From: Flaccisagitta enflata | Lineage: Eukaryota | Length of the DNA stretch: 64,000 bases | Assembly: GCA_965153355.1 (NCBI GenBank) | Contig: OZ231126.1 | Location: 47,182,001-47,246,000 of the forward strand | Direction of reading: 5' to 3' | Shown here: positions 2,583-60,300 of the stretch, piece by piece | Position numbering within the stretch: position 1 is the stretch's first letter | Layout of the letters: each line of letters begins with the position of its first letter | Translations under genes and position numbers: made by a program | The notes under the pieces: model-generated | Database searches by the model: none | What the model was told of the DNA's origin: nothing | The model's input: the letters and a program-made list of their open reading frames with translations, nothing else

Positions 2583-4378
2583 CATTCCATGAAGAAGCAC
2601 TTTTTGAAAAGGCAACGTATTGGTGAGTTGCATCCCAAGCATGACCATTCGGGCGACCCAAAAGAAGAGAATGTCGTGACCAGTTTCCATAACAGAGAGG
2701 GGAAAGAGGCCCTCGGCATCTGTCCATGTGGCATCGGCCTTGGTTTCACCGTTTACCGCGTCTGGCCATCCCAAAGCGGAAAATGGGAAAAGAGCGGAAG
2801 AGAACCAAGTGTCCAGCACGTCGGGATCGCGACTAAGCGCTAGTTGGGACGGTGAACTAACGCCGATTTTCCTGGCCCCTTTCTCACGAGCCTCTTCCTC
2901 CGAGTGAGCGGCGACCCAGCTTTCTCCCTCTGAAGATGATGGTGCCGCCGACGACGGCATGCAGACCGTAACGCGATAGGCTGGAATACGATGTCCCCAC
3001 CACAACTGCCTAGATATGCACCAGTCACGCTGCTGAGCGAGAAAGTGATTCCAAATTTTTGCGTGAAAGGAGGGTTGGAACTCAAGACGGCCATCGGCGA
3101 CGACGTCCATGGCCTTTTTCGACATGTGGCCGCAGTCGAGGAACCATTGCTGCTTCAACATCGGCTCCACGACGTCTCCAGAGCGTGAACAGATGGGAAG
3201 CGTCATGGGGTGATCTTGAGAACCTCGGAAAAGACCCAGACCATTCAACGCGTGTCTCAACCGAGTTCGGGCGAAAAAGCGTGGAAATCCTGGAAAGTTT
3301 TTAAAAAAGATTAAGACTTAAATAAATACACGAGGCTAATTTTTGGTTTCTTACTGTCGCGCAGTTTTATCATAAGGAACGCTACGCACATGCAAATGGC
3401 TATCTTTTATTTCAAGATCATCAACCTGCAAAGTCGGGGAAATCGTTGGTGACGCAGCCGGCTTCATCCAACATGGTGATCGGAGAAGTCAGTCCAGAAT
3501 GACGTCGCGCCATCTCGAAATCCCGTTTGTCGTGGGCGGGAGTCACTTTCACGGCGCCAGTCCCAAATTCACGGTTCACAGACGGATCGGCAATGACGGG
3601 GATGGCACTGTAATTCGATGTTGAAAGGGCTTTAAAATTAACCGACATTTGCTATCTAATGTTGCATATATAGGTGACAACTGTGCAGAGTTCTCTTGTC
3701 CTTCACAACTTAACCTCAAATTCTTAACAGACATGGTAATTGTTTCAACAAACTGACACCAGGCTTGGTTGTCTGATACATTAAGAATGCCAGCCGCGAA
3801 TGATCATAGGCAAACAAAACTCATACCAATTCCGGAATGGATGTATCAGCGATCGCCCGATGAACGGTCGGTATCGATCGTCGTCAGGATGCACGGCCAC
3901 AGCGACGTCCGCCAGCATAGTCTCCAGGCGAGTGGTGGCTACGACGATTTCCTGGCAGCCAATTCCTTCGAAACGATACGCGAACGAATCGAGCAGACCG
4001 AAAGTGACTTTCTCGTCGTAACCGGGGATTGACAGCTGCGTGTTTCCTTCGATGGACAAATTGTCGACTTCCACGTCGGAAATTGTGGAACCAAGATGGA
4101 AGCACCAGTTGACGAGACCCAAAGAGCGATAAATGAGACCTTGATCGTGCAGGCGGATAAAGGCTTCGTCCACGGCGGTTGATAGAGAGGGATCGAGAGT
4201 GAAGACGCGACGATTCCAATCCAACGACGCCCCCATGCGGCGGAGTTGGTTTTCGATGGTAGAAGCTGAAAAGGCAGTGTGGAAATGGTACAATGAAGGC
4301 GTGAGTAGAGGACTGGAGAGAAAGTGAGGAAGGGAAGAAAAGGGAGAAAAAGGAAGAAAGGAAAGGAAGAAGAAAGAA

Positions 4379-4434
<56 letters not shown>

Positions 4435-5419
4435 AAAAAAAGACAGTAAATAAGAAAAGATAAAAGAGGAAAAAGGAAAAGGAAGACAAGAAAAAAAAAA
4501 AAAGATCGCAAAAAGAAAGAACGAAGGAAAAAGAAAAGACAGGAGGAGAGAAACAAACGAGGAATCTTGAGGGGAAAAGAAGAAAAGAAGAGAAGAAGGG
4601 AACAAAGGAAGTCAAGAGCACAAGAAAAAGAAAAACAAAGACAAAGTGCAAAGTGCAAAGATATGGTTCGCAAAGATTACATTGGTTTTGATGAGCAAAA
4701 CCATAGTTTGTCTAATACGACAAAGAAAAGAACCAACCTTTCAAATCTTTCCAGTCGCTGACCCTCTTAACAAATTCGTCTCTTCCAAGGTCATCTCTCG
4801 TCTTCCCTTCTTCCGCCCAGAGCTTCTTTTCGACGACCGATTGAGTAGCGATGCCGGCGTGATCGAATCCCGGTACCCACGTCACTTCGTCTCCGCACAT
4901 CCGACGCCAACGACAAAGCGCGTCTTGCACGCTTACGGTTAGCGCGTGACCGATGTGTAGATTGCCCGTGACATTGGGAGGCGGTAGGACGACGGAGAAA
5001 CGATTGTGATTTGACTGAGAAGAACGTACTTCGACGCCGTCGCATTCATTGCGCCGATTCGCCAACATCGACGCAGATGAACCCGACGACGACGTTGAGA
5101 AGATACCAGAGGCTTCCCACCAATCTTGCCAAGCGGCTTCGACGTAACGCGGATGATATGCGTCCGGCATAACGACGGTAGTGTCTTTTTTAGCGCCGTC
5201 TTGAGGTCCATAGTAAACCACAGTTTCATTGCCTTTTTTCTTTTTCTTCTTCTTTTTCTTCTTGGCGACGACAGCGGATGGAGTTGGCTCGTTGGCGGCC
5301 ACAGCGGCAGCGGATGTGGCAGTTTCCGCTACATCGGGCGATAAATGGTACACGGAGGACGAGAAAAATCTATTCAAATTTCGAGCGAATGGTTTGTAAC
5401 TTTGAGGCAGATAGCGCAT
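2583..5419 (-). CDS. VARS2: Valyl-tRNA synthetase, probably mitochondrial; 3'-incomplete. Exons 5419-4738, 4265-3827, 3607-3426, 3289-2583
   Basis: Motifs [15 protein letters not shown] (HIGH), [73 protein letters not shown]; frame-preserving GT-AG junctions; Arg/Ser-rich, acid-free presequence-like N-terminus; KMSKS exon not found in the window. Confidence 0.93.
4320..4645. repeat. (GAAA)n and purine-rich simple repeat in VARS2 intron 1
   Basis: Direct reading. Confidence 0.9.
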
Positions 5420-5502
5420 GATGAAAGAAGCTGTTGTACAGTATTATGTTTTTGTTATGGTTTCTTGCGAGTCTAATTCACAGTATAAAATAGAAGTAAA
5501 TT

Positions 5503-6405
5503 TTATTGAATCTTCTTTTTGACGGGGGCGCAGTCGTATTTCCCACGGACGACACGGACGTGCACGCCGATGAGATCCTTGGTACGACGGGCTTCACATA
5601 GAACCGTGCTGTGTTCTTGCAAATTGTGGCCTTCTCCAGGGACGAGCGCCACGCACTACAGAATAGGATTTGAAACGTAAAGAAATCGATAAACGGCCAA
5701 GCCAGTCATCGTTTTTTTTTCTTTTACGTCTTAGCCTTAATGGCCATTTAAAACCGTTAACGTCTAAACTGATGCTGATGCACTACTGAGCATCTTGAAT
5801 AACCCCAGTTCACCTCTCTTCCGTTGGACAGTCGCACGAGGACGCACTTCCGATTGGCCGAATTGGGTTTCTTTGGCTTTTTGATGAGAGTCTTCAAAAC
5901 GACTCCCTTCAAGTGTGGGGCGTAGCCGATTGGTGAAAGTCTTACCCTCCTAACAAATCAGTGATGGATATGGACAATTCATGGATTCAACTCTGGACTC
6001 TGGAGGCTACTTCAAAAGGTCATAATTGCATAATGTACTAATTCTTGCCAAATCTTACCTCTTCGGTTTCGGCGGAGCTCCATGGACCCTTTCCAGATCA
6101 GTCCAATTTCTTTTACTTTGAACCACTTCGAACGAGTCCCTGACTGTGAAGTCGGAGGTCTGGTGACGAATCGAGGAAGCGATGACACAAGATTTGGAGG
6201 AGAAATAGTTGGTAAAACCGTTAAGAACGGAGGAACTCGGTGCCACGAATGCGGCCGTGTTAAGGAATGAGATGGGTGTGAGTGAAGGAGAAAAATGAGA
6301 TGAAAGGGGTGAGAATCCAGGAAGCGACGATGAGAGGGCCGTGGTTGGTACCGAAGCGAGTCGTTTACATGCAGTAGGAAGGAAACGGCTCATGAAACTA
6401 AACAT
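5503..6405 (-). CDS. MRPS12: Mitochondrial ribosomal protein S12 (uS12m). Exons 6405 (or 6393)-6059, 5949-5814, 5655-5503
   Basis: Manual translation gives [35 protein letters not shown] / [16 protein letters not shown]...[16 protein letters not shown]; long Ser-rich presequence; GT-AG junctions in frame; the two conserved exons are absent from the ORF track. Confidence 0.93.
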
Positions 6406-6465
6406 CGTCGCAGTTTGAGCGAAATGAAGTACAAAAGAAAGAAAACTTAAAGTTTGATCGGTCTT

Positions 6466-8080
6466 TTAGATGTTGAAACTTTCGCCGCAACCGCAAGTGC
6501 CTTTGATGTTGGGATTGTTGAAAACAAACTCAGCCGATAATTTGTTTTCTACAAAGTCCATTTCGGTGCCCAACAACGTCAACTGCGCTTTACGGTCGAT
6601 GAAGACTTTGACCCCGTCTTGAAGCACCTCCTCGTCAAATTTGGCCTTGTCTGAAATGAAGGGTGGAGACATTTTTCCCCGGACAATATCATTACTCATT
6701 AGGCATGATTATGTTGGAAAGGGCCTGCATTTAAAAGGCCTCAAGGGCAGAAAAGTAGTACAGAGTAATCTTCTACATTACTTACTACAAGGCGATCGAG
6801 TACCTTTGGCAAAATCCAAAGTGTAAGAGAGACCGTTACAGCCCCTGGTTTTAACGCCGATTTTGATAGCGCTGGCCTCCGGATTCAACTCGAGAAGCGT
6901 CTGTATGCGCGAAACTGCAGATGGCGTCAATACGAGCGGCGCACGAGTAGGTATCGGGCGCGAAATCTTCTTCACGGCACGAACGGTTGCACTCATAGAA
7001 CTGAAAGAGGAAAAAGATGAAATTTGAAAGAGCTGATAGCCTTCATCAGATATACAGTAGATCTCGTCTAGACTTGAGATAATGGGGGCAAGCATTGTGT
7101 AAAGACGAATGAAGGCAGGGGAGCGATATTTGGATTATAGACTAATCAAAGGATGATTAATTCCCTATGATAGCTGGTTGCCATGGAAACACATTTCTAT
7201 TATTCTCCAATCAATATTTTTGAGAGATTTTTTAAAGAACATTGCTTAAAATAAAATTTTCAAATTTCACAGTATGTTCTGTAGAAATGTTACCGCTGCT
7301 GAGCGTATCCATGTGTGACAACCCTAGCAAGCAAACGAGCGACATTCTTACAGAACATACTGTGGAAGTTTTTATTTTAAAAATCTCAAAATATTGATAC
7401 TTTAGCGAGAATACATGGAAATGTGTTTCCATGGCAACCAGCTGTCATGGGCAATAAAGCATCCAATTATTAGCCTATGTATGAAATATCACTCCCCTGG
7501 CTTCATTTGTTTTCCTACACTACTTGCCCCCGTTATCTCAAGTCTAGACGAGATCTACTGTACCTAGGAAATAATCATATTGCATCAAACATCAACCCTT
7601 ATCTTTACTTGTGTACAATTAAACGTTCGCATTAACTTTTTCTAAAAAGGAAAACTGATTTCTGAGAAATTTTCAATTTATCTAGACCAAGCAGAATTAT
7701 CTAGCTTTAATCGTTTGAAATTACAGAAAAATATGTTGAGCGACATCAAAAACAAAATCACAAGAACATGTCCTTGTATCGATTGGTTTGATGCCTGCTT
7801 TTTGTTTGCATTAAGGCTTGGTCTAGAGCAAAAGAAATTTCTCAGAGATTATTATTCTTTTCGGAAAAAATTTTATATACAAGTTGTTTACCGTTTAATT
7901 CTGAGCGAGTTATTATGGGTTAAGCCTGATGCAATGATTCTTTCCTAGGTAGTGACTTGAGTAAGGGCGGTCAGGATGTAAGTCAACATACCTTCTTGCA
8001 CCTCCAGTTGCCATCATCAGAGCCCAATTGCCGAGAGTGGGCCCATACTTGCGACCGACGTTTACCAAAGGATTTTGCAT
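6466..8080 (-). CDS. ISCA1: Iron-sulfur cluster assembly 1 (A-type carrier). Exons 8080-7992 (probable), 7000-6804, 6650-6466; an internal ATG at 6996 is an alternative start
   Basis: GVKTRGCNGLSYTL, DGVKVFIDRKAQLTLLGTEMDF, FNNPNIKGTCGCGESFNI*; the upstream exon MQNPLVNVGRKYG...GGAR ends in AG|GTATGT and splices in frame to TTTCAG|TTCTATG. Confidence 0.92.
7055..7560. mobile_element. Palindromic MITE, Tc1/mariner-type (TA-flanked), in ISCA1 intron 1
   Basis: TIR cagtagatctcgtctagacttgagataa ... ttatctcaagtctagacgagatctactg; TA on both sides; inverted arms extend internally. Confidence 0.9.
7563..7949. mobile_element. Second TA-flanked MITE abutting the first
   Basis: cctaggaaataatcatattgcatca ... 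tgatgcaatgattctttcctagg; TA on each side; internal inverted blocks (tctagaccaagc/gcttggtctaga). Confidence 0.8.
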
Positions 8081-10071
8081 TTATTTCGGTATCATTCAGA
8101 GAGTCGGATAAAAATAATAATAAAAGTGATTCAATTCAAACCTGTAAAGAATCAGAATAGTCGATCGAATTTAAAAATTAGATAACCGTAAGACGGGGAA
8201 AACCGACAACGACCCGAGAGAGGATAGATTATGTATATAAACATTAACAGCATTTCGATCAGTATGGTGGGACAGATAGGATCTGGTGATGTCAAGCTGT
8301 TTCCTACACAAGCGCTGGGATGAGGCTGAGAGGTAATCCGGGCTTTGGTTATCTCTAAAGGGCTTTATCGGCGAAAATAGATTCATAAATTTCTTGTCAT
8401 GAAAATTTCATAAGGGCGTTTCAAATTTTTCTAAAGTTTTTCAATTCTCTCAAAATCGATTTGCATCTTTAAAAGCCGTGGCCAACTTTGAAACTATTCG
8501 GACTCTTATGAATCTGAAGAAAATACGGAGGTGTTGTACTTAGTAATAATTTGAAATGGGATATCTATCGGTCTAGAGACGAAAGGAATGCTGGGATAAA
8601 TTAAAAAAAACTGGATTAATAAATATGCAAATGGATTCATTTACGTGCACCAATGAATTCGGTTACAGATGATACACGGGCAGCATTGGAGGTCAAAAAA
8701 TTTGTGACGGGGAGCAAAAATGTGTCACGAACTAATCCACGGTAGGTAGAGCTTGACATACAAAAAGTAGAGAAAAATGACCGATAGTAAAATACGTAGT
8801 AATGTTGGGATTGGGCGAAACGAGGAAAGTGGTGGGTAACTACTACGATAAGGGAACGTTGCATGGCGCTAAAAAATTCCGCCTCGCACCAAAGGTCACA
8901 GGAGTAGGCCAATATTCTCACTTTCATAATAGTACGATGAGTAAATTGGGAAATAGGAGACTGGAGAGCAAGAAAAACTTTTCTGCATCAATGCCAAAAC
9001 TGGGCGTGGGAGGAGAGTATTGGACCGGCAGCAAGGTAAAGAAACAAACTGCTGCATAACGCAGCGTTGTGTAGCCTCTCAGAAACCAATCTCTCCCAGG
9101 CCAATTGGGCAACAAGGAGTTCATTATATCAATAGGTAGGAAAAATTGATACCTACGCCGAAAAAAAGTCTCCATTCCAATAAATAGTACCATTCGCGTA
9201 CAATGAAAAAGAAACACGGTGGTGGATGAAACGGAGGTGGAATAAAATATTAGAGTAAAATCTAATATGTAAAAAGTACAAAAATCAGCCGAGATTTCTC
9301 TAAGTCTATGACGTTATCACTGACAATGAAAGTAAGAACTGCGCAAAAAGCTCGAGTTCTCTAACTTAGAGCATCATGAGTAACGTATCCAGAACTTAAC
9401 AAAGAATCGTTTGACGTTAAATAATGACTGACAACATGACACAGTCTCTTTTTAAGATGGTAACTAGATACCGATGCAACATACAACAAAGAGTGGTTCT
9501 CATTTTTTTTTTGGTATAGGACACTGACAAATGACGATGAGCAATAGAAATTTAGCGTGGTGTTTGCAAATTTTTACCCACCCAGGAACTAGACCATTGA
9601 CCATTTTCAATAAAATAAAAAATCTTTAAAAAAACACGGATGTTTGCCCAAAGACTCATTCTTTTCTTATTAACAAATCGCAAAGCGAAAAAAGGAAAAA
9701 AAATCACCCCCTCCCACAAAAAATACTACTAACACAACGGTAGCTTGGCCTTTTATCTCAAACCCGACACAACCAGATATAAATAAATACCAAAATCATA
9801 ACAGAGGAGGAATAAATAATATTTCCTCGACTAACAAGAAGAACGAGGAATTATGGATTGATGGAATTAAAGGAGGAACGTCAAAAGTGGAAGCTTGAAG
9901 AGGAAGAGGAGGAAGGGGGGAAATGGTCGAAGTGGGTTTTGTAAAAATGGTGACGAGAAAGGGAATCGAACAATAGAGGAGGTTATGACAAGTCTTTGAC
10001 AGAAAAAAGGGTTCAGAATAAAACGATTACAAAATGAGAGCTACAACGGTTTGGTTGATCTTTGCATGAGA

Positions 10072-12318
10072 TTAGGTGTATTTTCCTGAGTGTTGACGCA
10101 CACTCATTTGGAGGAGATACTGAGCGTTTTGAATCTGTAAAAAGAAACAAAATGGAGTAAAAGAAAACAAATTGGATGGAGTAAAAGAAAACAAAACGGA
10201 TGGAGTAAAAGAAAACAAAGTGGATGGAGTAAAATCACTTGTCGCTTATGTGACAACCAATGGAGAGAAGGGATGTCTATTAGAAAATCACTGAGGCATT
10301 CAATGCTATATAACGAGGCAAAACACATGGAGAGAGAATCGGCAAAAATCGTAAATCATAATAACACGATACAAAAATATGACGTAGAGCCATCACGTTT
10401 AATGTATACCTGTTCTTGAGTCCCAGTGATGGTGATGATTCTATCATTGCTCCCCGGTTGAACCTCGCTGGCAATGATGATTTGAGCGCCTGACTGGGCC
10501 CGAATGGCGCGTATTCTGTGTCCCTGAGTCCCAATGATCGAGCCGGCCAAGTCTTTTGGTATTGACACCTAAAGCAAAGCAGAAAGGACCACCGTACAGT
10601 GATCAAAAGACAACAAATAGGCTTGACTCAAAACGAAACGCCATATCGGCTGAGAGCTTCTTATTTCACACCTGTTGAGTTGTGCGTTCTCCTTCGCTCC
10701 TTGAGGTGTTAGGTTGTCCAGCAAATGTGGGATCAAGGTGAGAATTCCAATCATTTCCTCCGCCATTTCCGCCCCTTTGATTGCCGCCACGCGACCCTCC
10801 GGGACCCCCACCGCTTCCGAACGGCTGGCCGCCGCCGCCACCACCACCGCCTCCACCACCGCCACCACCACCGCCGCCCTGCCGGCCGAAACCGCGCGGG
10901 ACGGACATGGGGCCACTACCTCGTACGTTGGGGTTCTGAGGATCGCCGAAGCCTCCATATTCCGGAGCGGCGAAATCGTCGAAGTTGTAAGGATCGTAAG
11001 GCTGGACTCCACCTTTGATTCCAGCCGATGTGGCGATTTCCAATACTTGCTGAATGGTATCGCACACCAAATCTGGCTTGCCTGCGGCAAAAAAATCAAT
11101 ATCTAGAATCAAGTTATTACCCCGAACGTATTAATAGAAAATCATCATTTCCACTTGTGACCACACGTTGGACAGACGATAAAAACAAACCTGTGATTTG
11201 AATGACCCGATCGGTGGACATGGGACAACATTGGGAATAGACCCGGATGTTGGTTCCGGTGACGTCTCGTAATTCTTTGATTTTGCTGCCGGCTCGACCG
11301 ATGATGGACCCGACTTGCGACTGGTGCACGAGAATTCGGACCTCGCAATCGAAATTCAAATCAACGTGGTCCTTGTAATCGTCCAGGCGGGGTACGACGT
11401 CGACCAAAACCTCAAGGGCAGTTCCTGCGCCACCATGGGTTTACGGATTTGAATTAGGGATAAGGATTTGAAGAAAAAAAAACAGCTAAAATTAGAAAGT
11501 TCCGCATAGTGTCGGCATACGGCGCATAGACTGTAGCCACTTCAGGTCACACCAATACATAGTCGACACAAAAAAGCGGCTCAAGTATCAAAGAGAACAA
11601 GTAACACGTACCAAGCTCCGCCGTAATCGTCAAGATCCGCTCGGGGCCGCTGCAATCTGTGGAGATAGGAAAGAGGGAGCCATTTCTAGGTAGCCATTTT
11701 TAAGTGTGTCCTCGCACTTTCATAAGAGGTCCTGTGTCCGTTGGTTGGTTGGTTGGTTGGTTGGTTGGTCGGTCACGCGAACATTTGAGATGTGCAAAAC
11801 GGCACATTCTTACGTCTTTCTTCAATCCTTTCATCTTTCTTCAATCCTTTCATTTCATCATTCATTCATTCATTCATTCATCCAAAACGTTCATTCACAA
11901 ATACTTAAGCGAGGCGCAGTTATTGGCCATAACCTGGCCTTGTTCTATTTTAATTAATCGCAATACGGGCTCTCAGGAACACGATCCGTCATAAATGGGT
12001 CACAGCACCTGGAACAGTCACGCTCGATTTGTAGGATTCCCTCAATCTCTTGATGTTAGATCCTCCCTTGCCGATGATAGCCCCTGCGTTTTTCGTGTTG
12101 ATCAGGACGCGCAGCTCCGTTCTCGGTCCTTCACCGCGCCGACATCGACGAAAGGATCCCGGTCCGTCCGCTCTCCCATCCGTCGTTCCAGCGGAGGTGC
12201 CGTAGCCGCCGCCTCCGTCCCTAGACGGCACTCCATAATTGCCGACACCTCCACCGCCAGAATTTCCATTGGGAGTTCCAACGCGTCCTTTACCGTCAAA
12301 GTCATCGCTCAGCATCAT
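10072..12318 (-). CDS. HNRNPK: Heterogeneous nuclear ribonucleoprotein K (3 KH domains). Exons 12318-12009, 11656-11612, 11424-11191, 11081-10672, 10568-10410, 10134-10072
   Basis: KH1 [38 protein letters not shown]2 [39 protein letters not shown]; Gly-rich linker; KH3 [38 protein letters not shown]; all junctions GT-AG and in frame. Confidence 0.95.
11703..11943 (+). mobile_element. HINE/DINE-1-like non-autonomous element in hnRNP K intron 1
   Basis: 5' palindrome aagtgtgtcctcgcactt, (GGTT)n tract, 3' hairpin ggccataacctggcc, T-rich flanks. Confidence 0.6.
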
Positions 12319-12538
12319 CGAAGGGAGGATGGTGGGAAAGTGGAAAGAAGGGGAGGGAGAGAGAAAAAGAGGAGGAAGAGGAGGAAAAGGAGGGAGAGTT
12401 AAGGAGATGGGAAGCTAAGAGGGGGAGCGGCCTGAAAAATAACCCGAGAACAAATCCAATTTCCATATGATAACAATAAAATAGAGCGCAGAACAAAGAC
12501 AAATTGAAAATATCCGGCCAAATAAATGATTTCTCCAT

Positions 12539-13977
12539 TCATTGTATCAACTTCATTTGATTTTCACTCAATTCAACGACAACGGGCTGTTCATCGTCCA
12601 AATCAGTCTCGTCAAAATTCCATTTGAATTTTTTCGTGAGATACGTCTTGAATTTCTCGGCTTTGTTCTTGAGCGCGACGTCGAGACTGTCGGCTTCGGC
12701 GACGTTGACGAACAACGAACAAAGAGTCGACGTGAGAAAGTTTTCTCTCGTCACGATATCCAGGAAAAAGTCTTCGGGAATCTCGCGAGTTTGGAAGTAA
12801 AGAACGGTGATGAAATCCGCGTAGAGACTCGGATGCCGCGCGGCCGAGGACGCGGCCGAGTCGCAGAGTAAATGAGTCAGCTGTTTCCATTGCTCAAATC
12901 CGTCGTAAACCCGACCAAACAGGAACACGACAAAGGCCAGTTGCAATTCGCCCAGCAAGTCGGCCGTGACGTCGGAGAAGTCCTCGCGCAGGATCTGCTC
13001 GAACAGCGGGGTCTTATCCAACGATAACCGCGTCACTTCCGCCGGTGTCGCACCGCGCGGAATACACGCGTTTTTGGGAATCGCGTGGAAGCGCATGGGA
13101 GTACCGGACACCGACGTCATCTTCGGCAACTTATCCTCGGCGTTTTCGCAGTTCGATTTTGCCTCATCAACGGCAGATGGCGCGGTATCGCCACCCGCTG
13201 GACCGGGTTGTTCCTTGGCGCCATCTTCCTCCATTTTATTTTTCCGGTGGACGTTTTTCTGATGAAACTTCTCCTCGGCTACGAGTTCGGAAAAACTAGA
13301 TATGAGTCCCGATGTGGGGCTTAGACTCGCGGCCAAGTTGAAACTCGCGTGATTGGTCAACGAAATCCATTTCTTGTGGTTTTCATAAGGGTATGGGGCC
13401 AGGAAAGGATCGAGTTCTCGCTTACGGGCCGTGGAATCGAAACGAGATGGAGAATTGCCATCGCCGCGAAGACAGCTTTCGTCGATGAAGCGCATCGTCT
13501 CTTCTTCTCGGTTCCACGTGCGGACGACCACCTCCTCGCCTTTGAAATCGTAGAAGAATCCGGAACGATGCCCGACGTCACCATCGGAAGTACGACTCAC
13601 GGGACTGATAAGGAATGAAGACGATCAGGTCCGTTCAGGTTCAGACATTTGGATGACAACGAAACTGTGGCACAATCTACACTTATGTCATGAGATTTGG
13701 ACACGATTCGATAACTTTATATAAAGACTTTTTACGTATGAGAGAACCCTTTCTTGGTCCCTTTCTTCCACAATTTTGTTACTCTTTCATAACTGTATAT
13801 CAACACTGACCTGAAGTGTATAAAATGGAGTCCAGGTGGAATCATCTTAACCCCTTTAAATTTTGGCCCTAAGGTCCAAACGTTGCAATCCATGCCGAAT
13901 TCGGTGCCTTCCGGGACGTCAAGAAAGATGAAGGTCGCGCCATAATCAAATAATTTCTTTGCCCGTTCCTGGTCCAT
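12539..13977 (-). CDS. AAR2: AAR2 splicing factor (U5 snRNP assembly). Exons 13977-13811, 13604-12539
   Basis: [110 protein letters not shown]. Confidence 0.95.
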
Positions 13978-14835
13978 TCTTACTGTATGGAAGGCTGTAT
14001 GGCCTGTATGGATGGATGGATGGAACTGAATGGTAAAAGCCGAGATAAAAATGCGTTTAGGAGACGTAAGCTGAGATGACAATTACTCTCATTTACAAAT
14101 AAATTGCTATGCCATTGGCTATATGTGCCATCACACCACCATGACCAGAGAGCATCGCTGCAAATGAAAATCTGATTGCTCGAAAGCGCGACCTGGCCAG
14201 GGTGTTTAGAGAGCAATGAAAGATCTAAAACAAAATGCCTCTACCCACCCTGCATCAAAGAACGGAGGGCTTTTTTCACGATGAGTGACCTCATTTAAGA
14301 CACTTTAACATTTTGAATTAAAATAATATAGAGAGGAAACCATGTGACAAAGTGATTTACGAGTTTTTAAGCGTAGGCTTAAAGAGTTTTTTATCTCCCA
14401 GTATGACTGATACTGTTGGATTTTATCGGACGGATTTCTACCTTGTTTACGGCTTTGATTTGTTACATTATTCCACGATTTTACAATTTTTTATATCTTA
14501 TCAAGTTATGAATTTTTTGTGTTAAAGGACCCCGTTGGAAAAAAGTTCTTTTGCGACTTTAATGGGCTATCCTCCGAAGCGAGCTTTACATTTCATTGTA
14601 TCTGTAAATTTTGTTTGTTTCGCAAATTAAATTCATTCATTCATAATGTACCTTTATCATTATGAAATCGAGTAATTCACGCATCCAGTTATTTCAAGAC
14701 ATCAGTAATCAACGGATGCAAGGCTAAGTAACAGTCCGTTTGGCTTGTTATCAAACGTCCTGCCTTGAGATCATCCGTAGCTTCTCTAGTGATATGTTTT
14801 AGCTGATGATTAGCATTTTTATCTTTACGAATTTG

Positions 14836-25887: not shown

Positions 25888-28800
25888 CTAGTATTTCTCC
25901 AACTTTTTTCCTTTTTTTCCGCCTTTCAGTTTCTTTGGATCGTTGTGCTTCTTGGGCTCAACCGCTTCTCCCCAAGGCCCTCGGCTGACGTGCTTCTTTT
26001 TCTTGCCAACCCTATCGCTCTCTACCGTACTAACGCTCACTTCACTGGGCGCGGAGCCTCGTTTCGCCGCGCCAATCGCACCACCGGGTTTCACCGCGGC
26101 TACTCCACGACCGCCAGACTTGCCGACGTCGCCTCTTCCTTTCTTGCCGGTCGCGTCAACTTCATCTGCCTTGTCCGTCGACGTTGACGTCGAAGAGCTT
26201 TGATGCGAGGATGACGTTTGACTCATCTCTTCGTTGTAAAGAGCGTCGATCATCGAAGGTTTTCGATGTTTCTTGTTCTTCATCGTGTACCACATGACGG
26301 AATCATACCATCCGCTCTTCTTAGCCGCCGTCTTCACAGGATCCTCTTTCACATCCTTGCCGTTAGCCGCCTGATCCTTCGGGTGGACACCGCGGCCCTT
26401 ATGCTTCTTGTCATACAACGCAGTGTAGTCGACTGTGATTTTGCCCTTGTTTTTCTGAGCCATTTGAGGTGGCGGCTTCTCGCCCGCCGCGGGACCCGCC
26501 GCCGTATCGTTGCAGCAGGAGAAACGTCCTTTCTGATTGTGACAGAGGCAGTAAATAAGACAAGCGACGATGATGGCAACGGCGATGACGCTGGCGGCGA
26601 CGATGCCGCCGAATGTCCAATATCCCATCGAAAAAAGTGAGGTCCAAAAGGTAGCGCAAGGACCGCTTTCGGCATCCTCGTCACTAAAAAGGACAAAGAA
26701 TGGTCGGAAACGGGAAAAGTAGTGACTCGCATCGGAATCATTTTACTTTCAAAATTGCCAAATGTTACAACAGACTTCCAAATTTATCTTTTGCACACTA
26801 TTTCAATAATTATTTCATACATCAACAATATCGTACTTTGAAGCATTTCATTTATCAAAAATCTTACGTGGTATACTATCATCTTCATGTCCATAAGTAA
26901 GGGTACAAAACGACCAAAAAGATGATACAGCAATTGATCAACATCACACTCATATACCTGTAATCATTCCATCAATGTCGTTACCTAACTTATCATCATC
27001 ATCATCATCATCGTAGCCGCTATCATCATCGAAAATGTAGGCATTAATATAATGTTGTTGTTGCATTACTGGAATCTGAATATTAACAGAACATATGTTG
27101 CATTTGAGTGCTTCAGATAGCAAAAGTTGGTTACTTCTTTTCACCCTGTTTTCTTAATATGGAGTGGCCAAATTTAAAACCCCAATCATTTCTCTTTAAT
27201 CAAAAATCGTTCATCTTCCGTTCTTTGAAAAATTGTTTTTGAAGTTCTAATTTGAATTAACTTTTACAAATTTTTGCTCTACAAAGAACTGTTAATTTGC
27301 CTTTTCATGAGCTCTTTCATAGCTTATATTTTTACATCTTAGTTTATTTTTACAAATATCATGATTTCTTAAAATAAATATCCCTAATGTAATAAAACTA
27401 TACAGGATTTTGCTGAATTCAGGGAAATCTATAGAAACTTCAGGGCCAAAACAAAAACAGAAGATGAAGAATTTAAAAAAAAAAAAAGGTCATCTTCATG
27501 ATTTTTGCTTCTCCATATTACCTAAGTAAGGTGAAGGGATACTCCCAACTTTTGCTATTTGAAGCACCCAAATGTTGCATCACGTTCGGCTTCACATATC
27601 GATGAAGGAGAGGCAATTGCCTTCATATTTGTCGTGATTGCTATCAAATCCCGGTCAAGTCTAACATAAGCCGTGCTTTCAACCCAACCTCCCTAGATAA
27701 TTTTCCAGACCTCCAACCAGAGTCAAGTAACCCTTCCCTGGGCCACAACTGCGGGGCAAATTCTTTCACCTACGTCAAAGAACCTGGCGCAGGACTAAAA
27801 CCTCCATCAAAAGAGCCAAAGACGGGCTTGCATTCACTGAGCTAGCCTACCCCCTCCCTCTTTTAAAATCATCGTCATAGTCATAGACTCATAGTCCTTT
27901 TAGTCACCATCGTTTTTTCCATCAGCGTCGATGTCGAAATTAACAGCCTACAAATTTTCCCCATTCTTCCCCCCTTTTTTTCAACTATCTGTATTTTCCT
28001 GTCTGTATTTTTGCAGTTTCTCATCACAGTCAAAATCATGTTTCTTTTACAATTTTACAATTACAATTATCAAGTTAAAAACAATTAACCTCCCCTGATA
28101 CTATAGCTTCAAACCACTATGTCTCTTCCTTTACTAAACTGCCTCTCTCCTTCAATGATGTCCACTGCAATCAACCCTACCTGCTATGACCTGCAAACCA
28201 GTAAGACCTTGCAATAAACCAACACATTCAGAACAGGGCCATAAAGAATAAACATTGATCATTTGGAAAAAAACTCAAAATCTCAATCAAAACAAACCTA
28301 TGAAAACTTTTACTGACTCACTTGGTTGAGTTGAAAATGTTTAGATTTATAAAACAAAAACTTATGCCTTTTGATCATTTTTAAAATCAATATTTTTATT
28401 CCTAAAAAAAAAAATTTATTTTAATTGATCTAATTTTAAGTCATCACTTCTAAGTTATCTGCGATCAGTGCGTTGCAGTATTTCACCCCTTTTAACACTC
28501 TTCAGGGAAAAAAATCAAAACCAAAGGGGGGAGATATTTCCTAAAAAGGCCGCGAAATTAAAGGTCTGCAATGTAAGCGTCGTCTTTGTGATCAAACCTG
28601 ATCATCATCATCATGCATCAGTATATCACTATCAATATCACCATCAGTATCATCATTCGGATCATCATAAACATCGGTGTCATTGTCATCATCATCAGTA
28701 TCATCATCATCATCGTTACTATCACTAAATTATTATCAATGTCGGCATCGTCATCAGCATCGTCATCATTATTAATGCTCACTACTCTAAAGGCCGCTAG

Positions 28801-30915: not shown

Positions 30916-32116
30916 GCAGATTATAATGTCAGAGCTAGCGTCATAAAAATTGGAGTCAATAGTAACAGATTTATTTTTTCTTATTGTTACATAAAACTGA
31001 AAATTGGGATCAATGAAAAAAATCGATTTTTCAAAAATGCAAAAAAATAAAAAATTCATAACGCCAAAATTATTGATCATAGAAACTTCTGGTTGGCGCC
31101 ATTTGAAAGAGAAAAACTAGCTCTTTCTTAGCTTTGAATATTAAAAAAATATAAACTCCCAACCCCAAAAAAACAAAAATGGAGAACTTTTTTTCTCCCT
31201 TACGTTTCAAAAAGTCGAATTACGTAATTCGACTTTTTTCCAACAAGAACATTTAATTATACGTCACAGACGCACACACTCCCCAACTCCCGCACACTCC
31301 GAACCCCCCCCTTCCCAGACACACACACACGTGATGGGACATGACCCCGCGTTTTTCTGTGCACGAGTAGCTTCTGACCACGAGTAGCTTCTGACTCACC
31401 TCACTAGGTGCCTTGTGACCACAAATGCCGGTCGGTGGTGTGAGCAAAATAGCGTCGTCTTCCTTTCCGTCGTAGACGTATATACGATCATCGCACTCCA
31501 TTGTTTCTTCTTTGTCAAACAAATCCATCTTAGCCCAACGAAGAAGGAGACGTTGACGAGGCGGCGACATGATGGTCACGCTGCACCGAACGTCTTCGTT
31601 ATATGGCCACTTGCGAGTTAGCTCCAGTCTTCCTTTGCTCACTTCTCCGACTCCGATTATCTCATCACAATTTTCGTCCATATACTCTGTCGGCATGACT
31701 GTGTTTCCTACTTTACTTCCTATGAGCGACGCCGAGAGCACCGAGGACGATAACTGTAGCAGAGTCAACGTCATCGACGTCACGATGAGCAAAGAGCCGA
31801 GTGGAGAGGAGTAACGAGGTTGGGGAGGGCGGGACGAGATGGCGGGCGGAAAGACGTCGCGTCTATCACGAAACCTGAAGGTCTTTTTCCGCGAGGTTGC
31901 GAACGCTCCGTTTGCTAGTCGTAAAGTCCTTTGTTCTTTAGCACCAGCTAAATAAGAATTGTTGTTAGGACGCATTCTTGAGAAGTTGTTAATATGACTA
32001 GAAGACTGAAGCGGTTTTCCACAGCATGAGCGGCTGAGGTGCCCATCGACCTCGTATTTGCGGTCATAGTTAACCATGAGCGCACAACCAGTGCGCAGAG
32101 CGTGATGGGAGCACAT
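25888..32116 (-). CDS. Single-pass membrane protein with CUB and LDL-receptor class A domains. Exons 32116 (start uncertain)-31400, 29032-28824, 26683-25888
   Basis: CUB-like YNEDVRCSVTIMSPP..ECDDRIYVYDG..GICG..RFVRIVFQS..GFSLIYSAF; LDLa [32 protein letters not shown] completed across the splice junction; TM segment GGIVAASVIAVAIIVACLIYCLC; Lys-rich cytoplasmic tail. Confidence 0.85.
27095..27580. mobile_element. Inverted-repeat MITE, second copy at about 51640-52178
   Basis: catttgagtgcttcagatagcaaaagttgg ... ccaacttttgctatttgaagcacccaaatg; internal sequence is colinear with the 51.6-52.2 kb copy. Confidence 0.75.
29768..30010 (+). mobile_element. HINE-like element
   Basis: agtcgctgcctaagcgact palindrome, cagcgact subterminal repeat, ggccgtgtatccagcc hairpin. 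Confidence 0.75.
30465..31242. mobile_element. Microsatellite-carrying dispersed repeat bounded by ggaaaaaagtcg ... cgacttttttcc
   Basis: Inverted terminal motif, internal (GT)n/(GAGT)n/(CT)n; related copy at about 16598-19019. Confidence 0.7.
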
Positions 32117-32309
32117 GTCGCCAACGACGGGACAGTTTGTTTTTTATTGGCGGGGAAGGAGAATAATTGACTAAAATTCTTTCTATTGGACGGACGATTG
32201 AGTAGTTCACCCGTACCTCGTCAATCCTGACAGAAAGCAGAAAGGCAAAACTACACAAATTTAGTGTGATTACACTTGACACGGAACAAATGTCAGATTC
32301 CGCTTTTTT

Positions 32310-54364: not shown

Positions 54365-57300
54365 TCATTTTGAGGGTCCATTTAATAGGGAAACGGCAAC
54401 AGGCGCCACGTGAGGCGACCCTGAAGGATGATTGGACACTGAGGGCAGTCCAGTAACTGAGGAAGAAGATGATATGGATGAGGATGGTGAAGGGGATGAA
54501 GACGTTGACGATGAATTGACGACTTTACTGAGAGAAGTCGGTAAAGAGGAAGGAGAGGCGGCGCTCCCGACCCCGGCCGCACCGCCAATATTGTTCGAGG
54601 CATGATGAATCACGTTGTTGCTTAATTTCATAAACGATTTTTGTTGCTGTCTAAGTTGAGGTTGCGCCGCGTTTAGCGTTCCTTGGGTCACCTTACTACC
54701 GCTGGCAAGAGACGTGACGACGGAAGTGGCGCTCGCACTTTCCACGAGATTTGCATTACTGGCGACTCCAGAGTTTTCTAAACCAATTGTCAATCCACTT
54801 TTACTCGTTACCGCCTTGGAGATCGATGAGACTGACACGCCACGCGACGGCGAAGCACGCGTAGATGAAGTCGTGGCAGACAGCGATACCGCTAGGTTAT
54901 GGTGCGTCGGTGTCGACGGCTGAGGTATCGTTGTCACGGCAGGTTGTTTCGCGCCGATTGTTTGCGTTATTTGTTGGCGTAGGTCGGCCGTGGACACCAT
55001 CGCGGCCGACTTCGTGATTTGAGCCGCTGGCTGCGAGTGTTTCAAATGGGTCTGAGGCGAAGCCACGGTCATAGACGTCACGACCGAAAGAGCGGATGGG
55101 GAAACGCTGGAAGCGATTACGCGATTAGGACTTCGCTGCGCCAGCGTGTGCTGCTGCTGCGGCTGAAGAGTGCTTTTGATAATAGGCTGTTGAATGCTCT
55201 GAAGGGAATGAGTCATGCCCGCCGCCAAGAAACGCTGTTGTTGTTGCACAACGGTAGTGGCGTTGGCGGGGATACCGGTCAACGGTATTCCCATAGCCGA
55301 CGTTAACTGACCCGTGGACTTGGACGACGTCAGAACTGCGGCCGTTCCGATAGGTGGCGAAGAAGAGATGGATGGAGGAACCGACAACAACGTCGCGGAG
55401 GCAGAACCAGCGAGGATGTTCGCCGCGGAAATATTTGAAGATATCGAAGACACTTGTTTCAACGACGACGGCGCAACAGCAGACGTGGTGGAAGTGGTCG
55501 TCGCGACGACGGCGTTGAGTACGCTGGTCGTCATGGTGGGAAAGGAAGCGTTGGATACAGCATTCATCGATATCGTTCCTATTGGACCCACGGTCTTCAA
55601 CACCGGAGTCACTTTGTTAATCCCACTCATCACAACCGTGGAAGTGGATGCGATACCACAAGGCTGCTGTAGCGATACGATAGTACTGTTAAAGCTAGCC
55701 GCGTTTGGAGATTTCAGTCGCGGAGTAGCCTGGTTGAATCCCGGCAAGACGCGACTGAATTGAGCGTTTGCCGCCATCGTCGCATTGGGGTTGTTAATCT
55801 GCGTCGTAGATCGCGACGGAGATGCGTTGTTTGTCACGCCCAACTGAGAGGAAGGCAGAGCACCCGTTTGCGTCGTCACGACGAGTGTCGTCGCCGCGCT
55901 GAACGACCCCTGATTGTTGGCAGAGTTTAAGGCGGGCGCGACGACGCCAGATACTAGCTGAACCACGCCGGGTGTGGACAACTGGTTGACAACGGCTGGT
56001 GAAGTGGCCAAACGTTTGTGCCCCAATTGTAGCGGCGAGCTGACAACAGCGTTGGCGAAAGAAGCCTGAGGAAGAGCCGAGAATGATACCAATTGCTGCT
56101 TCTGTGGTTGGTTGTTCTGTTCCACCATGAGTATATTACTCGCGAAGGGAGCTGGCGCTTTCCCGGAGTTTTTCACAGGCGAAGGCTGAAATGTTTGAAA
56201 TTGTTGCGTGGCCTGCGAAATGGAGCCATCAGAAATGGAAATCGGCGCGACGGCTTGAGAAGGCGCGAATGAGGAGCCAGTGACGCTAGTGGATTGTTTT
56301 TGACGTTCGAGTAGCTGGGGATGAAACATGACAGATGGCTGTTGCTGTAAGTTTTGATGATTCGTCACAGAACTTGAAATTGTCAATGGTGCGGATTGCG
56401 AAGATGCGAGTGTTGTCGGCGGAATAAGCGGTGGAGTGGGCGTAGAAGATGCAGAACGGAGATGGGACGAAGAGGATGGCGATGGAAGTGGCGAGGGTCG
56501 CGGCGACGATGGAGTAGATGAGGTTAGTGGCGGAAATGACGAAGAACTTCCGACGCGCGTTTGGCCAACAGTCACGCCGTTGCCAACGGTGCTTGTAATC
56601 GTACTGAGATTGAAAGATTGGCGCGATACAGGGGTCATAGACCGGTGACCCGACTGATGAGTTTGCTGGTGAGGTATTGTCGCATCGAAATTGGAGGGAT
56701 TGACCTGGAGAACTGAAGCTGTAGACGCAACGGCTGGTTGGTTTGGGAAACTAGCGGCACCTCCGGGAAGTACGGCTGCTCCTCCTCCTCCTCCTCCCAA
56801 CGTCGTCGATTTGACCGAAGACGACGGTGCATGAAGTGCGTTGAGGGCGTGGGCGACCGAAGCCTCCGCGAGGACGACATGATCTGGGCAAGCTCTCTTC
56901 TTCTCTATGGGCGTGTGAGAGACGGACGAAGCACTGCTGACAATGCCTCTCGTAGTATCAACCACTGGGCCAAAGGCGGACGAATTTGGATCGATACCAC
57001 CTACTACCGCGTAGGATGGTATCAACCCTGAACCAGATCGAGCGGCAGCAACCGAAGAGACCAGCTTAACGTCGTCGGATGTCTGGCAACTTCTTTGCAT
57101 AGCCAGCAGAATTCGCATTTGAAGATTATACTTCTCGGCTCCATCAAGGATTTCTGTCGATTTTGTCATCGTTCCATACGACGACATACTGGATAACTGA
57201 GATTTGTCCGAGCGTTTAGTCCGTTCATCATCCGTCGATTCAGAACCGAGGCTTTTAAAAGGCGAGGTCGTTGTAACGATGGCGTCGATAGATGAGGATT

Positions 57301-60300
57301 TCGCTGACGTCGATACACACACCCGCGACCGATAGAAATTCCTGCGAAAAGATTGAAATGGAAAGAAGTGAATGAAATCCTGGGTGAAAGAGGATAAAAC
57401 GAGTGAGAGAAAGATCGAAAGATAAGCATGAAAGGACGATGTGAGAAAAAGCAACAACGTATTGAAAGGATAGGGCGAGGAGAGATGGATGTACGTAATG
57501 GACGAACGACGGTAAAGATAAGACGAAAGACCAAGTGCATAGACGAAAGATTGGATGGAAGACAGAGTGAATGGCGGGGTTGGAAGGCGTAGTGAATGAA
57601 GGGCTGGAAGGCGTAGTGGGCGAAGGGCTGGAAGGCATAGTTAGTGAATGGACAGAAGACGTATTAAATGTATGGATGAAAGATGTATGGCAGAAAGACG
57701 TAGTGAATGAATGGCTGGATGATGTAGTGAATGAATGGCTGGATGATGTAGTGAATGAATGGCTGGAAGTGGTAGATAACAAATGGCTGGAAATCGTAGT
57801 GAGTGAATGGCTGAAGGACGTAGTGAATGAATGGCTGGAAGATGTAGTGAATGAATGGATGTAAGATGTAGTGAATGAATGGCTGGAAGATGTAGTGAAT
57901 GAATGGCTGGAAGATGTAGTGAATGAATGGCTGGAAGATGTAGTGAATGAATGGCTGGAAGATGTAGTGAATGAATGGCTGGAAGATGTAGTAAATGAAT
58001 GGCTGGAAGATGTAGTGAATGAATGGCTGGAAGATGTAGTGAATGAATGGCTAGAAGGCGTAGTGAGTGAAGGGCTAGAAGGCGTAGTGAGTGAAGGGCT
58101 AGAAGGCGTAGTGAATGAAGGGCTGCTAGGCGTTGTGAATGTAAGGCTGCAAGGCGGAGGGCATAGTGAATTAAGGTCTGGAAGGCATAGTAAATGAAGA
58201 GCTGCAAGGCGTAGTGAATGGAAGGCTGCAATGCATAATGACTGAATGGATATAAGATGTAGTGAATGAATGGCTGAAGGATGGTGTGAATGAATGGGTT
58301 GTAAGACAGTGCACAAATGGCTGGAAGACAAAGTGAATGAATGGCTGGAAGACGTAGGGAATGAATGGCTGAAAGCCGTAGTGAATGAATGGCTGAAAGA
58401 TGTAGTAAATGAATAGCTGGAAGATGAAGTGAATGAATGGCTGGAAGATGAAGTGAATGAATGGCTGGAAGATGTAGTGAATGAATGGCTGGAAGATGTA
58501 GTGAATGAATGGCTGGAAGGTGTAGTGAGTGAAGGGCTAGAAGGCGTAGTGAATGAAGGGCTGCTAGGCGTTGTGAATGAAAGGCTGCAAGGCGTAGTGA
58601 ATGAAAGGCTGCAAGGCGGAGGTGAATGAAAGGCTGCAAGACAAAGTGAGTGAATGGACAAGACGTAGTGAATGAATGACTGGAAGATGTTGTGAATGAA
58701 TGGCTGGAAGACGTGATTGAATGGCTGAAAGACGTTGTGACAGTGATGAAAGAATATGAGGCGTAATGAAAGAATAAGAAATGTTGAAAAAATTATAGTA
58801 CACAATGAGCAAATGACAGATGAAACTGGTAAATGAATGGCAGATATACTGAGTATGATAGACGGTATAAGTGAACGAAAGATGTAATGAAAGAATACGA
58901 CAACAAGGCCGGATACACGGCCAATACCAGTCGCGGATGGGTGGGCAGGGGCGGAATTACGCGTTTTAGCACTTCCAAACTCGTTTATTACCAACGGACG
59001 GACGGACGGACAAAGCCTCTTGTAGAGTCGCTAGTCCGCGACTAAAAAGAGATGAGTGAATGAGTTATGTAATGAGTGAATGAAAGAAGTAATGAGTGAA
59101 TGAAAGATGTAATGAGTGAATGAAAGATGTAATGACTTTTTTTGAATTGATGAAATGAATGAGAGATGCACATGGATGTAATGGATAAAAGATGCGAATG
59201 GTGAGAGATGTGACGGGTGGGAGACGTATTGAATAAGAAATGTATTGAATGAAAAATGTATTGAATGGTAGCTGTGATAAATGTAAGATGAACGACAAAA
59301 TGAATGGAATATGTGACAAGGCCAACACCTTACAGTCGCGTGCGGTCGTTATCTAAGAGACTAAAGGACTAAAAGATTAACAGACCAAAAGACCAAGACA
59401 CTAGATGTAAATTGTCTTGAAATAACTTAAAATGACTTGATATGACGTAAGACGACAAAAAAAGCTAGGCGTGACGGATCGACCGACGGACAGAGCGGGT
59501 CATAGAGTCGCGTGCACGCGACTAATAAATTCATCCGAGAAATTGAGAAAAGTGATCTCTAACTTTGATATTTAAGCGAGAGCAAGATGTGAGAAGAAAA
59601 GGCCGTTTTTTCATTACCACTCATTGGCGTCTAGCATAGACAACTCGCGATCACTGGGCAGTCCATTGGGTAGCGTTTCCGAGCCATGTCTACTCGTTGA
59701 CAAGGTGGCGACGCTGGGCGTACACGTTGATTCTGTTAACGAGGGCTTCGCTCGCTCCTCCTCCCGATTCAGGGTCGAGGTCAAACGATCCCACAAGCCA
59801 GTTCCATCCAAGGCAGTCCAGCCACGGTCGAAATTCTCTCGGCCCCCTCGGCCTCGACGTCGACGCGCAAATCCCAAGGCGCGTTCCGATGGATGAGGAA
59901 TCTCGCTCTCTACGCCGAGCTCATCGACGTGTCGAGGATGCCGATACTGTCGCCATCCACGTCGCCGCGCATCGTCGTAGGGATGATGACGAGATCGTAT
60001 GGCGGTGCACGTGTAGCGGTATCGCAAGTCCGTGAGAAGACGAATATTCGGAGCCGAAGTGGAAGGCGTGGGTACCGTCGTCGACGTGAACGACGCTGCA
60101 GACTCCGACGACGATGTTGGAACCGTCGACGCGGTTTTGGAGGAAGACAGCCGAGACGACTTTAAACCGAAGGTGCTTTCCACATCAAACTCCCACGGGT
60201 AGGAACCAAACCCATCCGATTTCGCCTGCAATTGAGAAATGGCGCGCCAGTTACAGTAGATTATTTCTCGAAACAAACGCTCTCAACAATGACGTCCCTG

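What the first reader, a model, noticed from the sequence alone, without database searches (positions are those of the whole stretch)
10072..14010. AAR2 > hnRNP K: second tight pair, of RNA-processing genes, possibly heading a five-gene operon
Seen: the AAR2 stop (12539) is 220 bp from the hnRNP K ATG (12318). The gap is U-rich with no AATAAA on the coding strand, then a strong acceptor TTATTTTTCAG|G (about 12432), then a pyrimidine-rich leader. ISCA1 has a further apparently unpaired acceptor TTCTTTACAG|G at 8142, 61 nt above its ATG and about 1.9 kb past the hnRNP K stop. Inference: AAR2-HNRNPK is bicistronic and may run on into ISCA1-MRPS12-VARS2.
Basis: partly seen in the sequence, partly recalled or inferred. 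Interest (0 to 1): 0.7.

Follow-up and report, generated by a model that had tools for sequence, protein, structure and literature searches.

The report
Arrow-worm leader-spliced five-gene operon
In an arrow-worm (chaetognath) genome, five housekeeping genes lie end to end on one strand, RNA covers most of the space between them and the first carries a spliced leader, so they are likely made as one transcript and cut apart by leader splicing, an arrangement already described in this animal group.

Summary
Observation confirmed. The genome is chaetognath: it holds 185 exact copies of a published arrow-worm spliced leader (SL), many in tandem SL-RNA genes. AAR2 carries the SL at 14003 and at 14025. 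One AAR2 RNA contig ends exactly on the G of the hnRNP K acceptor (12432), the zero-gap layout of Ciona operons; three other runs stop earlier. The '1.9-kb gap' is transcribed (8265-10018) and is most likely hnRNP K 3'UTR; in a relative 29 of 57 reads end 23-24 nt before the ISCA1 acceptor. Spliced MRPS12 lies on contigs of 1.2-4.3 kb, too long for one cistron. Not shown: SL on hnRNP K, ISCA1, MRPS12 or VARS2, any RNA bridging AAR2 to hnRNP K, or absence of internal promoters. Mature AAR2 and hnRNP K mRNAs look monocistronic, so 'bicistronic' applies to the precursor. SL-resolved operons are published for chaetognaths (18% of genes in P. gotoi), so this is a new member of a known kind. The scan noted similar tight pairs on other animals' DNA. 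Interest 0.27.

The parts
14026..14027 (-). SL acceptor 1 of AAR2 (AG; exon starts 14025)
   Evidence: X1 contig starts at 14025 with 5 unlaid letters; open-ended protein P0207 begins LFK, the translation of the last 9 SL bases, where the genome gives TIQ. P0207 shares X1's allele, so the two may not be independent.
14004..14005 (-). SL acceptor 2 of AAR2 (AG; exon starts 14003)
   Evidence: X4 contig loose end at 14003 equals the last 9 bases of the SL; one contig
12539..13977 (-). AAR2 coding sequence, 410 aa, one intron 13810-13605; single copy in the genome
   Evidence: intron in RNA of X1, X3, X4
12432..12538 (-). AAR2 3'UTR (107 nt, 48% U, no AATAAA), ending on the acceptor G; also the likely outron/branch region for hnRNP K
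   Evidence: X1 contig ends at 12432 plus 2 unlaid letters; X2, X3, X4 stop earlier (12497, 12584, about 12758)
12432..12433 (-). Candidate SL acceptor of hnRNP K
   Evidence: best of 3 AGs, 101-nt AG-free zone, no GTR donor in the gap; SL joining not shown
12319..12431 (-). hnRNP K leader, 113 nt, 90% pyrimidine, seven runs of three or more C
   Evidence: 12346-12431 not covered by any of 4 runs
10072..12318 (-). hnRNP K coding sequence, 406 aa, three KH domains, five introns
   Evidence: all five introns in RNA
8166..10071 (-). Long hnRNP K 3'UTR (inferred extent); 8265-10018 shown transcribed
   Evidence: X1 one contig 8265-10018, X2 two contigs 8303-10007; closest hnRNP K records on contigs of 3205 and 3212 nt versus 3240 predicted
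8165..8214 (-). Non-coding patch conserved at 90-95% in a relative; RNA ends pile up at 8165-8166
   Evidence: X11 raw reads: 57 cover it, 29 begin or end at 8165-8166, 12 run past 8162; no Rfam match
8142..8143 (-). Candidate SL acceptor of ISCA1
   Evidence: last AG before the ATG, 141-nt AG-free zone; SL joining not shown
6466..8080 (-). ISCA1 coding sequence, 156 aa, introns 7991-7001 and 6803-6651
5503..6405 (-). MRPS12 coding sequence, 211 aa, two introns; 60 nt after the ISCA1 stop; AATAAA overlaps its stop
2583..5419 (-). First four exons of a ValRS with a mitochondrial-type N-terminus (VARS2, inferred); starts 83 nt after the MRPS12 stop; continues beyond the window after a 43-kb intron
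   Evidence: X3 contig has letters on both sides of the MRPS12-VARS2 gap (joint 5426/5492)

Best explanation
AAR2, hnRNP K, ISCA1, MRPS12 and VARS2 lie end to end on one strand of a chaetognath genome and AAR2 receives a spliced leader; the five are likely transcribed from one promoter above AAR2 and cut into mRNAs by leader splicing at the acceptors in front of each gene. Shown: SL-RNA genes, SL on AAR2, AAR2 RNA reaching the hnRNP K acceptor, RNA over most of the 1.9-kb stretch. Inferred: at 12432 the trans-splicing cut itself frees the AAR2 3' end, which is then polyadenylated without AATAAA (the model proposed for Ciona); hnRNP K ends about 23 nt before the ISCA1 acceptor; the two last junctions have weak acceptors and are resolved slowly or incompletely, so spliced ISCA1-MRPS12(-VARS2) RNAs are abundant enough to assemble.
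For: 185 exact SL copies against 0 for the reversed control, in ~735-bp tandem units carrying two SL forms each followed by a GT donor. SL at 14003 and 14025. X1 AAR2 contig ends on G12432 with 2 unlaid letters; P0207's contig length leaves 109-111 nt after the stop versus 107 to that G (same allele as X1). Intron and upstream bins have zero depth in 4 of 4 runs, so the contigs are RNA rather than DNA. RNA over 8265-10018; 6 of 6 close hnRNP K records lie on contigs longer than the 1401 nt of a short-UTR mRNA, 2 of 6 within 35 nt of the 3240 predicted. RNA ends at 8165-8166 in a relative. 7 of 7 full-length spliced MRPS12 records lie on contigs of 1211-4253 nt although the gene with both flanking gaps spans about 780 nt here; 1288 fits ISCA1+MRPS12 (1228-1300) and 4253 fits ISCA1 to VARS2 (4137 plus UTR). 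Precedent: PMC2481426 section 13, PMC12460157, PMC1488885 sections 14 and 17.
Against: No SL was seen on hnRNP K, ISCA1, MRPS12 or VARS2; 12346-12431 is uncovered in 4 of 4 runs and 99 loose-end rows were hidden. No contig bridges AAR2 to hnRNP K. The exact end at 12432 rests on 1 of 4 runs and the 2 extra letters were not displayed. The UTR contigs are not joined to the hnRNP K coding contigs: both X1 and X2 break within 10003-10018. In the window's own species displayed contigs stop at 8265 and 8303, not 8166. Acceptors before MRPS12 and VARS2 score -1.3 and 2.9 against 0.8-13.2 for ten real introns (small in-sample matrix). Contig lengths do not show what the contigs contain, and assemblers merge overlapping mRNAs.
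Confidence: 0.7

Rival explanations
1. Hybrid or split unit: the acceptors are SL acceptors, but hnRNP K and/or ISCA1 also (or only) have their own promoters hidden inside the upstream gene, giving AAR2-hnRNP K and ISCA1-MRPS12-VARS2 as separate or overlapping units.
For: No RNA bridge over 12432 or 8142 was displayed. The cluster splits by function into two RNA-processing genes and three mitochondrial ones. Three AGs in the hnRNP K 3'UTR score above the 8142 acceptor yet the RNA runs through them unspliced. About half of chaetognath genes are trans-spliced but only 18% are in operons (PMC12460157).
Against: Upstream RNAs run to 0 nt (X1) and about 23 nt (relative) from the next acceptor, which needs transcription through the junction; any second promoter must lie within transcribed sequence.
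Confidence: 0.2
2. Five independent, conventionally polyadenylated genes in a compact block; the AGs are unused or cis-spliced and the contig end at 12432 is an assembly break before a low-complexity leader.
For: The tool skipped 12346-12393 as a repeat and contigs break near it. Absence of AATAAA is within chance. MRPS12 has an AATAAA at its stop.
Against: SL use in this genome and on AAR2 is shown; the X1 contig stops on the acceptor G with letters unlike the genome, 38 nt short of the skipped repeat; gaps of 60 and 83 nt leave no room for promoter plus terminator; no GTR donor lies in the AAR2 gap.
Confidence: 0.07
3. AAR2 and hnRNP K are translated from one stable bicistronic mRNA, the pyrimidine leader acting as an internal entry site.
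For: 113-nt ATG-free pyrimidine leader.
Against: 15 of 15 full-length AAR2 records are on contigs of 1287-1506 nt; no hnRNP K record is on a contig over 3212 nt; the X1 AAR2 contig ends at the acceptor.
Confidence: 0.03

Closest known systems
Chaetognath SL-resolved operons: Spadella cephaloptera RPS14-PCNA (PMC2481426) and Paraspadella gotoi operons (PMC12460157)
   Same: Same phylum and SL family; co-oriented housekeeping genes; upstream 3' end within a few bases of the next acceptor (3 nt in RPS14-PCNA); up to nine genes per operon in P. gotoi.
   Different: Different genes; one junction is hidden behind a 1.9-kb 3'UTR and the last gene holds a 43-kb intron. Whether P. gotoi has the same cluster could not be checked (its operon table was too large to read).
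Ciona intestinalis operons without intercistronic DNA (PMC1488885)
   Same: Upstream RNA ends on the G of the acceptor AG; no AATAAA upstream; unresolved dicistronic cDNAs occur.
   Different: Ciona operons are mostly dicistronic; here the zero gap rests on one contig and the second junction appears to end about 23 nt short.
C. elegans SL1-type and SL2-type operons (as described in PMC1488885)
   Same: SL1-type: little or no intercistronic DNA.
   Different: SL1-type upstream genes have AATAAA, absent here at the first two junctions; SL2-type have ~100-nt spacers and a dedicated leader, and no operon-specific leader is reported in chaetognaths.

Membership tests
SL-resolved operon (chaetognath type) | Organism has SL-RNA genes and uses them | tested here: met
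   SL on AAR2
SL-resolved operon (chaetognath type) | Co-oriented genes less than 250 bp apart (criterion of PMC12460157) | tested here: met
   220, 60 and 83 nt stop to ATG; hnRNP K RNA to ISCA1 acceptor at most 123 nt in X1, about 23 nt in a relative
SL-resolved operon (chaetognath type) | At least one member carries an SL (validation criterion of PMC12460157) | tested here: met
   AAR2
SL-resolved operon (chaetognath type) | Downstream cistrons are SL-spliced | tested here: inconclusive
   hnRNP K leader uncovered; none displayed at 8141, 6445 or 5430 (99 rows hidden); pattern scan empty in a collection that lacks this species
SL-resolved operon (chaetognath type) | Polycistronic precursor exists | tested here: inconclusive
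   MRPS12-VARS2 bridged by one X3 contig and long MRPS12 contigs; nothing across 12432 or 8142
SL-resolved operon (chaetognath type) | Single promoter | not testable with these tools
   needs nascent 5' ends or promoter chromatin
Ciona-type operon without intercistronic DNA | Poly(A) added on the G of the downstream acceptor AG | tested here: inconclusive
   1 of 4 runs ends on G12432 with 2 undisplayed letters
Ciona-type operon without intercistronic DNA | No AAT(T)AAA within 40 nt of the upstream 3' end | tested here: met
   (AAR2 and hnRNP K); within chance expectation; MRPS12 has one
C. elegans SL2-type operon | About 100-nt spacer between the upstream 3' end and the acceptor | tested here: not met
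   0 nt and about 23 nt
C. elegans SL2-type operon | Leader dedicated to downstream genes | not tested
   no downstream SL reads; none found in P. gotoi or S. cephaloptera

The most novel reading that the evidence does not exclude
The operon is resolved unevenly: trans-splicing itself makes the AAR2 3' end at a zero-gap junction whose C-rich leader hnRNP K could bind to tune its own release, while the three mitochondrial genes ISCA1-MRPS12-VARS2, whose acceptors are weak, persist as a spliced, polyadenylated polycistronic mRNA conserved across arrow worms (4.0-4.3-kb contigs in two sequence clusters) and are translated from it. That would be a stable animal polycistronic mRNA inside an SL operon.
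Probability: 0.13. Interest if true: 0.62.

Novelty: new member of a known kind. Interest (0 to 1): 0.27.

Why it matters
It adds a worked example to chaetognath operons and a second hint, after RPS14-PCNA, that arrow worms use the Ciona-like layout in which the upstream mRNA ends at the next acceptor. How such 3' ends are made from a branched intermediate is left open in PMC1488885; AAR2-hnRNP K is a clean single-copy junction for testing it. It also shows that operon junctions can hide behind a 1.9-kb 3'UTR, so calls based on coding distance would split the unit. If the mitochondrial trio is a stable polycistronic mRNA the interest would be much higher.

Tried and rejected
Search for an SL-hnRNP K junction in metagenome contigs: 0 hits, uninformative because that collection returned only distant AAR2 relatives (13 loci, 29-41% identity). 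Search of the own genome for retrocopies that would preserve SL-bearing 5' ends of hnRNP K or ISCA1: only the locus itself. Open-ended protein calls reading into the SL: found for AAR2 only; none among 6 hnRNP K or 9 MRPS12 records; in-frame stops make it impossible for ISCA1. Rfam over 4700-14600: 0 matches at E 0.1. hnRNP K paralog on C5: no AAR2 copy anywhere else, next gene EMC1-like 3.9 kb on, no meaningful UTR similarity, so it gives no conservation test. P. gotoi supplements: 3 PDFs hold none of AAR2, hnRNP, ISCA1; the spreadsheet with the operon list could not be read. Depth arithmetic suggests one X1 contig spanning 6369-6600 across the ISCA1-MRPS12 gap, but the piece was not displayed, so it is not counted. 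Contig depths were not used to rank genes. Nine partial AAR2 rows (927-2236 nt), two non-chaetognath hnRNP K rows and two partial MRPS12 rows were left out of the length counts.
Full report
Observation. The coordinates given are right. On the minus strand AAR2 (13977-12539), hnRNP K (12318-10072), ISCA1 (8080-6466), MRPS12 (6405-5503) and a ValRS (from 5419) follow each other with stop-to-ATG gaps of 220, 1991, 60 and 83 nt. Names rest on Pfam and named homologues; 'VARS2' rather than cytosolic ValRS is inferred from its N-terminus. Ten introns of the first four genes appear as RNA joints and give open frames. Lack of AATAAA is real but within chance (0.62 expected over 1930 nt).

Organism. 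A 31-base pattern of chaetognath SL form 3 (Table 3 of PMC2481426, reported there from Flaccisagitta enflata) matches the genome 185 times, control 0. Many copies lie in ~735-bp tandem units, each with a form-3 and a form-1 leader followed by a GT donor. The genome is therefore of a chaetognath with SL trans-splicing; the species is not determined here.

AAR2 5' end. One X4 contig carries the last 9 SL bases joined at 14003, right after a CAG. The X1 contig starts at 14025 after another CAG with 5 unlaid letters, and the open-ended protein P0207 begins with LFK, the SL translation, where the genome reads TIQ. P0207 has the same two substitutions as X1, so it may stem from the same reads. Intron and upstream bins have no depth in 4 of 4 runs, which argues against DNA carry-over.

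AAR2-hnRNP K junction. The spliced X1 contig runs to 12432, the G of the acceptor AG, and ends with 2 letters unlike the genome that were not displayed; X2, X3 and X4 stop earlier (12497, 12584, about 12758). This is the layout of Ciona operons, where poly(A) is added on that G and AATAAA is usually missing (PMC1488885, sections 14 and 17 read whole), and close to S. cephaloptera RPS14-PCNA, with 3 nt between poly(A) site and acceptor (PMC2481426, section 13 read whole). Against: 1 of 4 runs only; no run covers 12346-12431, so SL on hnRNP K is not shown; nothing bridges the junction. Of 24 AAR2 records looked up (members of the top 10 of 153 hits), the 15 full-length ones lie on contigs of 1287-1506 nt: the mature mRNA is monocistronic.

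hnRNP K-ISCA1 junction. The 1.9 kb is transcribed: one X1 contig covers 8265-10018 and two X2 contigs cover 8303-10007; it holds no long ORF and no Rfam family. These contigs are not joined to the coding contigs, both runs breaking within 10003-10018, and their strand is unknown. That they are hnRNP K 3'UTR is inferred from the closest hnRNP K records: 6 of 6 lie on contigs longer than the 1401 nt of a short-UTR mRNA and two measure 3205 and 3212 against 3240 predicted. Raw reads of run X11, a relative that lays only in 90-95% patches (83 reads), keep non-coding patches at 8165-8214, 8634-8683 and near 9219; 29 of 57 reads on the first patch begin or end at 8165-8166 and 12 run past 8162. I read this as a 3' end 23-24 nt before the ISCA1 acceptor; no poly(A) was displayed, so a fragmentation hot spot or an antisense 5' end is not excluded. 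SL on ISCA1 was not displayed (99 loose-end rows hidden).

ISCA1-MRPS12-VARS2. Acceptors here are weak (best -1.3 and 2.9; introns 0.8-13.2) and an AATAAA overlaps the MRPS12 stop. One X3 contig has letters on both sides of the MRPS12-VARS2 gap, with 65 nt skipped or replaced. All 7 full-length spliced MRPS12 records (of 9) lie on contigs of 1211-4253 nt, while the cistron with both gaps spans about 780 nt in this genome. 1288 fits ISCA1+MRPS12 (1228-1300) and 4253 fits ISCA1 to the ValRS stop (4137) plus about 110 nt. The ValRS model beyond the window is by inspection (43-kb intron, last exon uncertain); a longer ValRS would fit MRPS12-VARS2 instead. Lengths do not show content, spacing in the relatives is unknown, and assemblers merge overlapping mRNAs.

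Mechanism. Most likely (0.7) one promoter above AAR2 makes a precursor; SL is added at 14025/14003 (shown) and at 12431 and 8141 (inferred); the cut at 12432 frees the AAR2 3' end (inferred, following the model proposed for Ciona); the last two junctions are resolved less efficiently (inferred). I put the AAR2-hnRNP K link alone at about 0.8. Rivals: internal promoters or two units (0.2), independent genes (0.07), stable AAR2-hnRNP K bicistron (0.03). That hnRNP K binds C-rich RNA is recalled knowledge; binding to its own leader is speculation.

Comparison with what is known. In P. gotoi about half of the genes are trans-spliced, 18% lie in operons, operons are called at under 250 bp with at least one SL-bearing gene, the longest has nine genes and no leader is operon-specific (PMC12460157, passages incl. 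the operon results and methods; three PDF supplements searched without hit, operon spreadsheet unreadable). The cluster meets that working definition; the stricter features (downstream SL, precursor, single promoter) are inconclusive or untestable here. It is not of the C. elegans SL2 type. No paper holding AAR2, hnRNP K and operon was found, and a search for chaetognath, polycistronic and mitochondrial ribosomal protein gave two sponge papers seen as listings only; other papers were seen as listings only. The scan had no notes on this genome and like pairs on other DNA, which did not alter the reading.

Verdict. A real and probably five-gene SL-resolved operon of an arrow worm: new member of a known kind, interest 0.27. 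The most novel open reading, a stable spliced mitochondrial tricistron plus self-tuned release of hnRNP K, has probability 0.13 and would merit 0.62.

Noticed in passing
G000:C5:27069000-27076500 (L008), G000:C3:89818400-89822400 (L009): Tandem ~735-bp units, each holding two SL-RNA genes (form 3 and form 1) with GT donors.
   Followed up: partly
L002-L007 (dispersed copies on C1): Single SL copies followed by unrelated sequence rather than the SL-gene intron; likely retrocopies of trans-spliced mRNAs that could map real acceptors genome-wide.
   Followed up: no
window 2582 to G000:C1:47141618: The ValRS gene has a 42,965-nt intron between the exons before and with the KMSKS motif, in an otherwise very compact cluster.
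   Followed up: partly
L031:8659-6680 (-): A 659-aa Pro/Arg-rich ORF without Pfam match starts about 480 nt after the modelled ValRS stop on the same strand; possible sixth member.
   Followed up: partly
G000:C5:12931054-12932163 (+), L033: hnRNP K paralog (63-77% identical) with most coding introns absent; an EMC1-like gene follows 3.9 kb on, same strand.
   Followed up: partly
window 8165-8214, 8634-8683, about 9219: Non-coding patches of the hnRNP K 3' region are better conserved in a relative than most coding sequence.
   Followed up: partly
window 2583-5419: A mitochondrial-type ValRS is kept although chaetognath mitochondrial genomes are recalled to lack nearly all tRNA genes (recalled, not checked).
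   Followed up: no
window 7017-7678 (ISCA1 intron 1): A repeat with inverted ends (about 7050-7130 and 7480-7560) that is very abundant in the RNA contigs; MITE-like by appearance.
   Followed up: no
window 25888-26742 (-), 31253-32143 (-), 54365-57640 (-): Other long ORFs: a 284-aa frame with a hydrophobic stretch and no Pfam match, a CUB-domain exon, and a 1091-aa Ser/Thr/Gln-rich frame without Pfam match.
   Followed up: no
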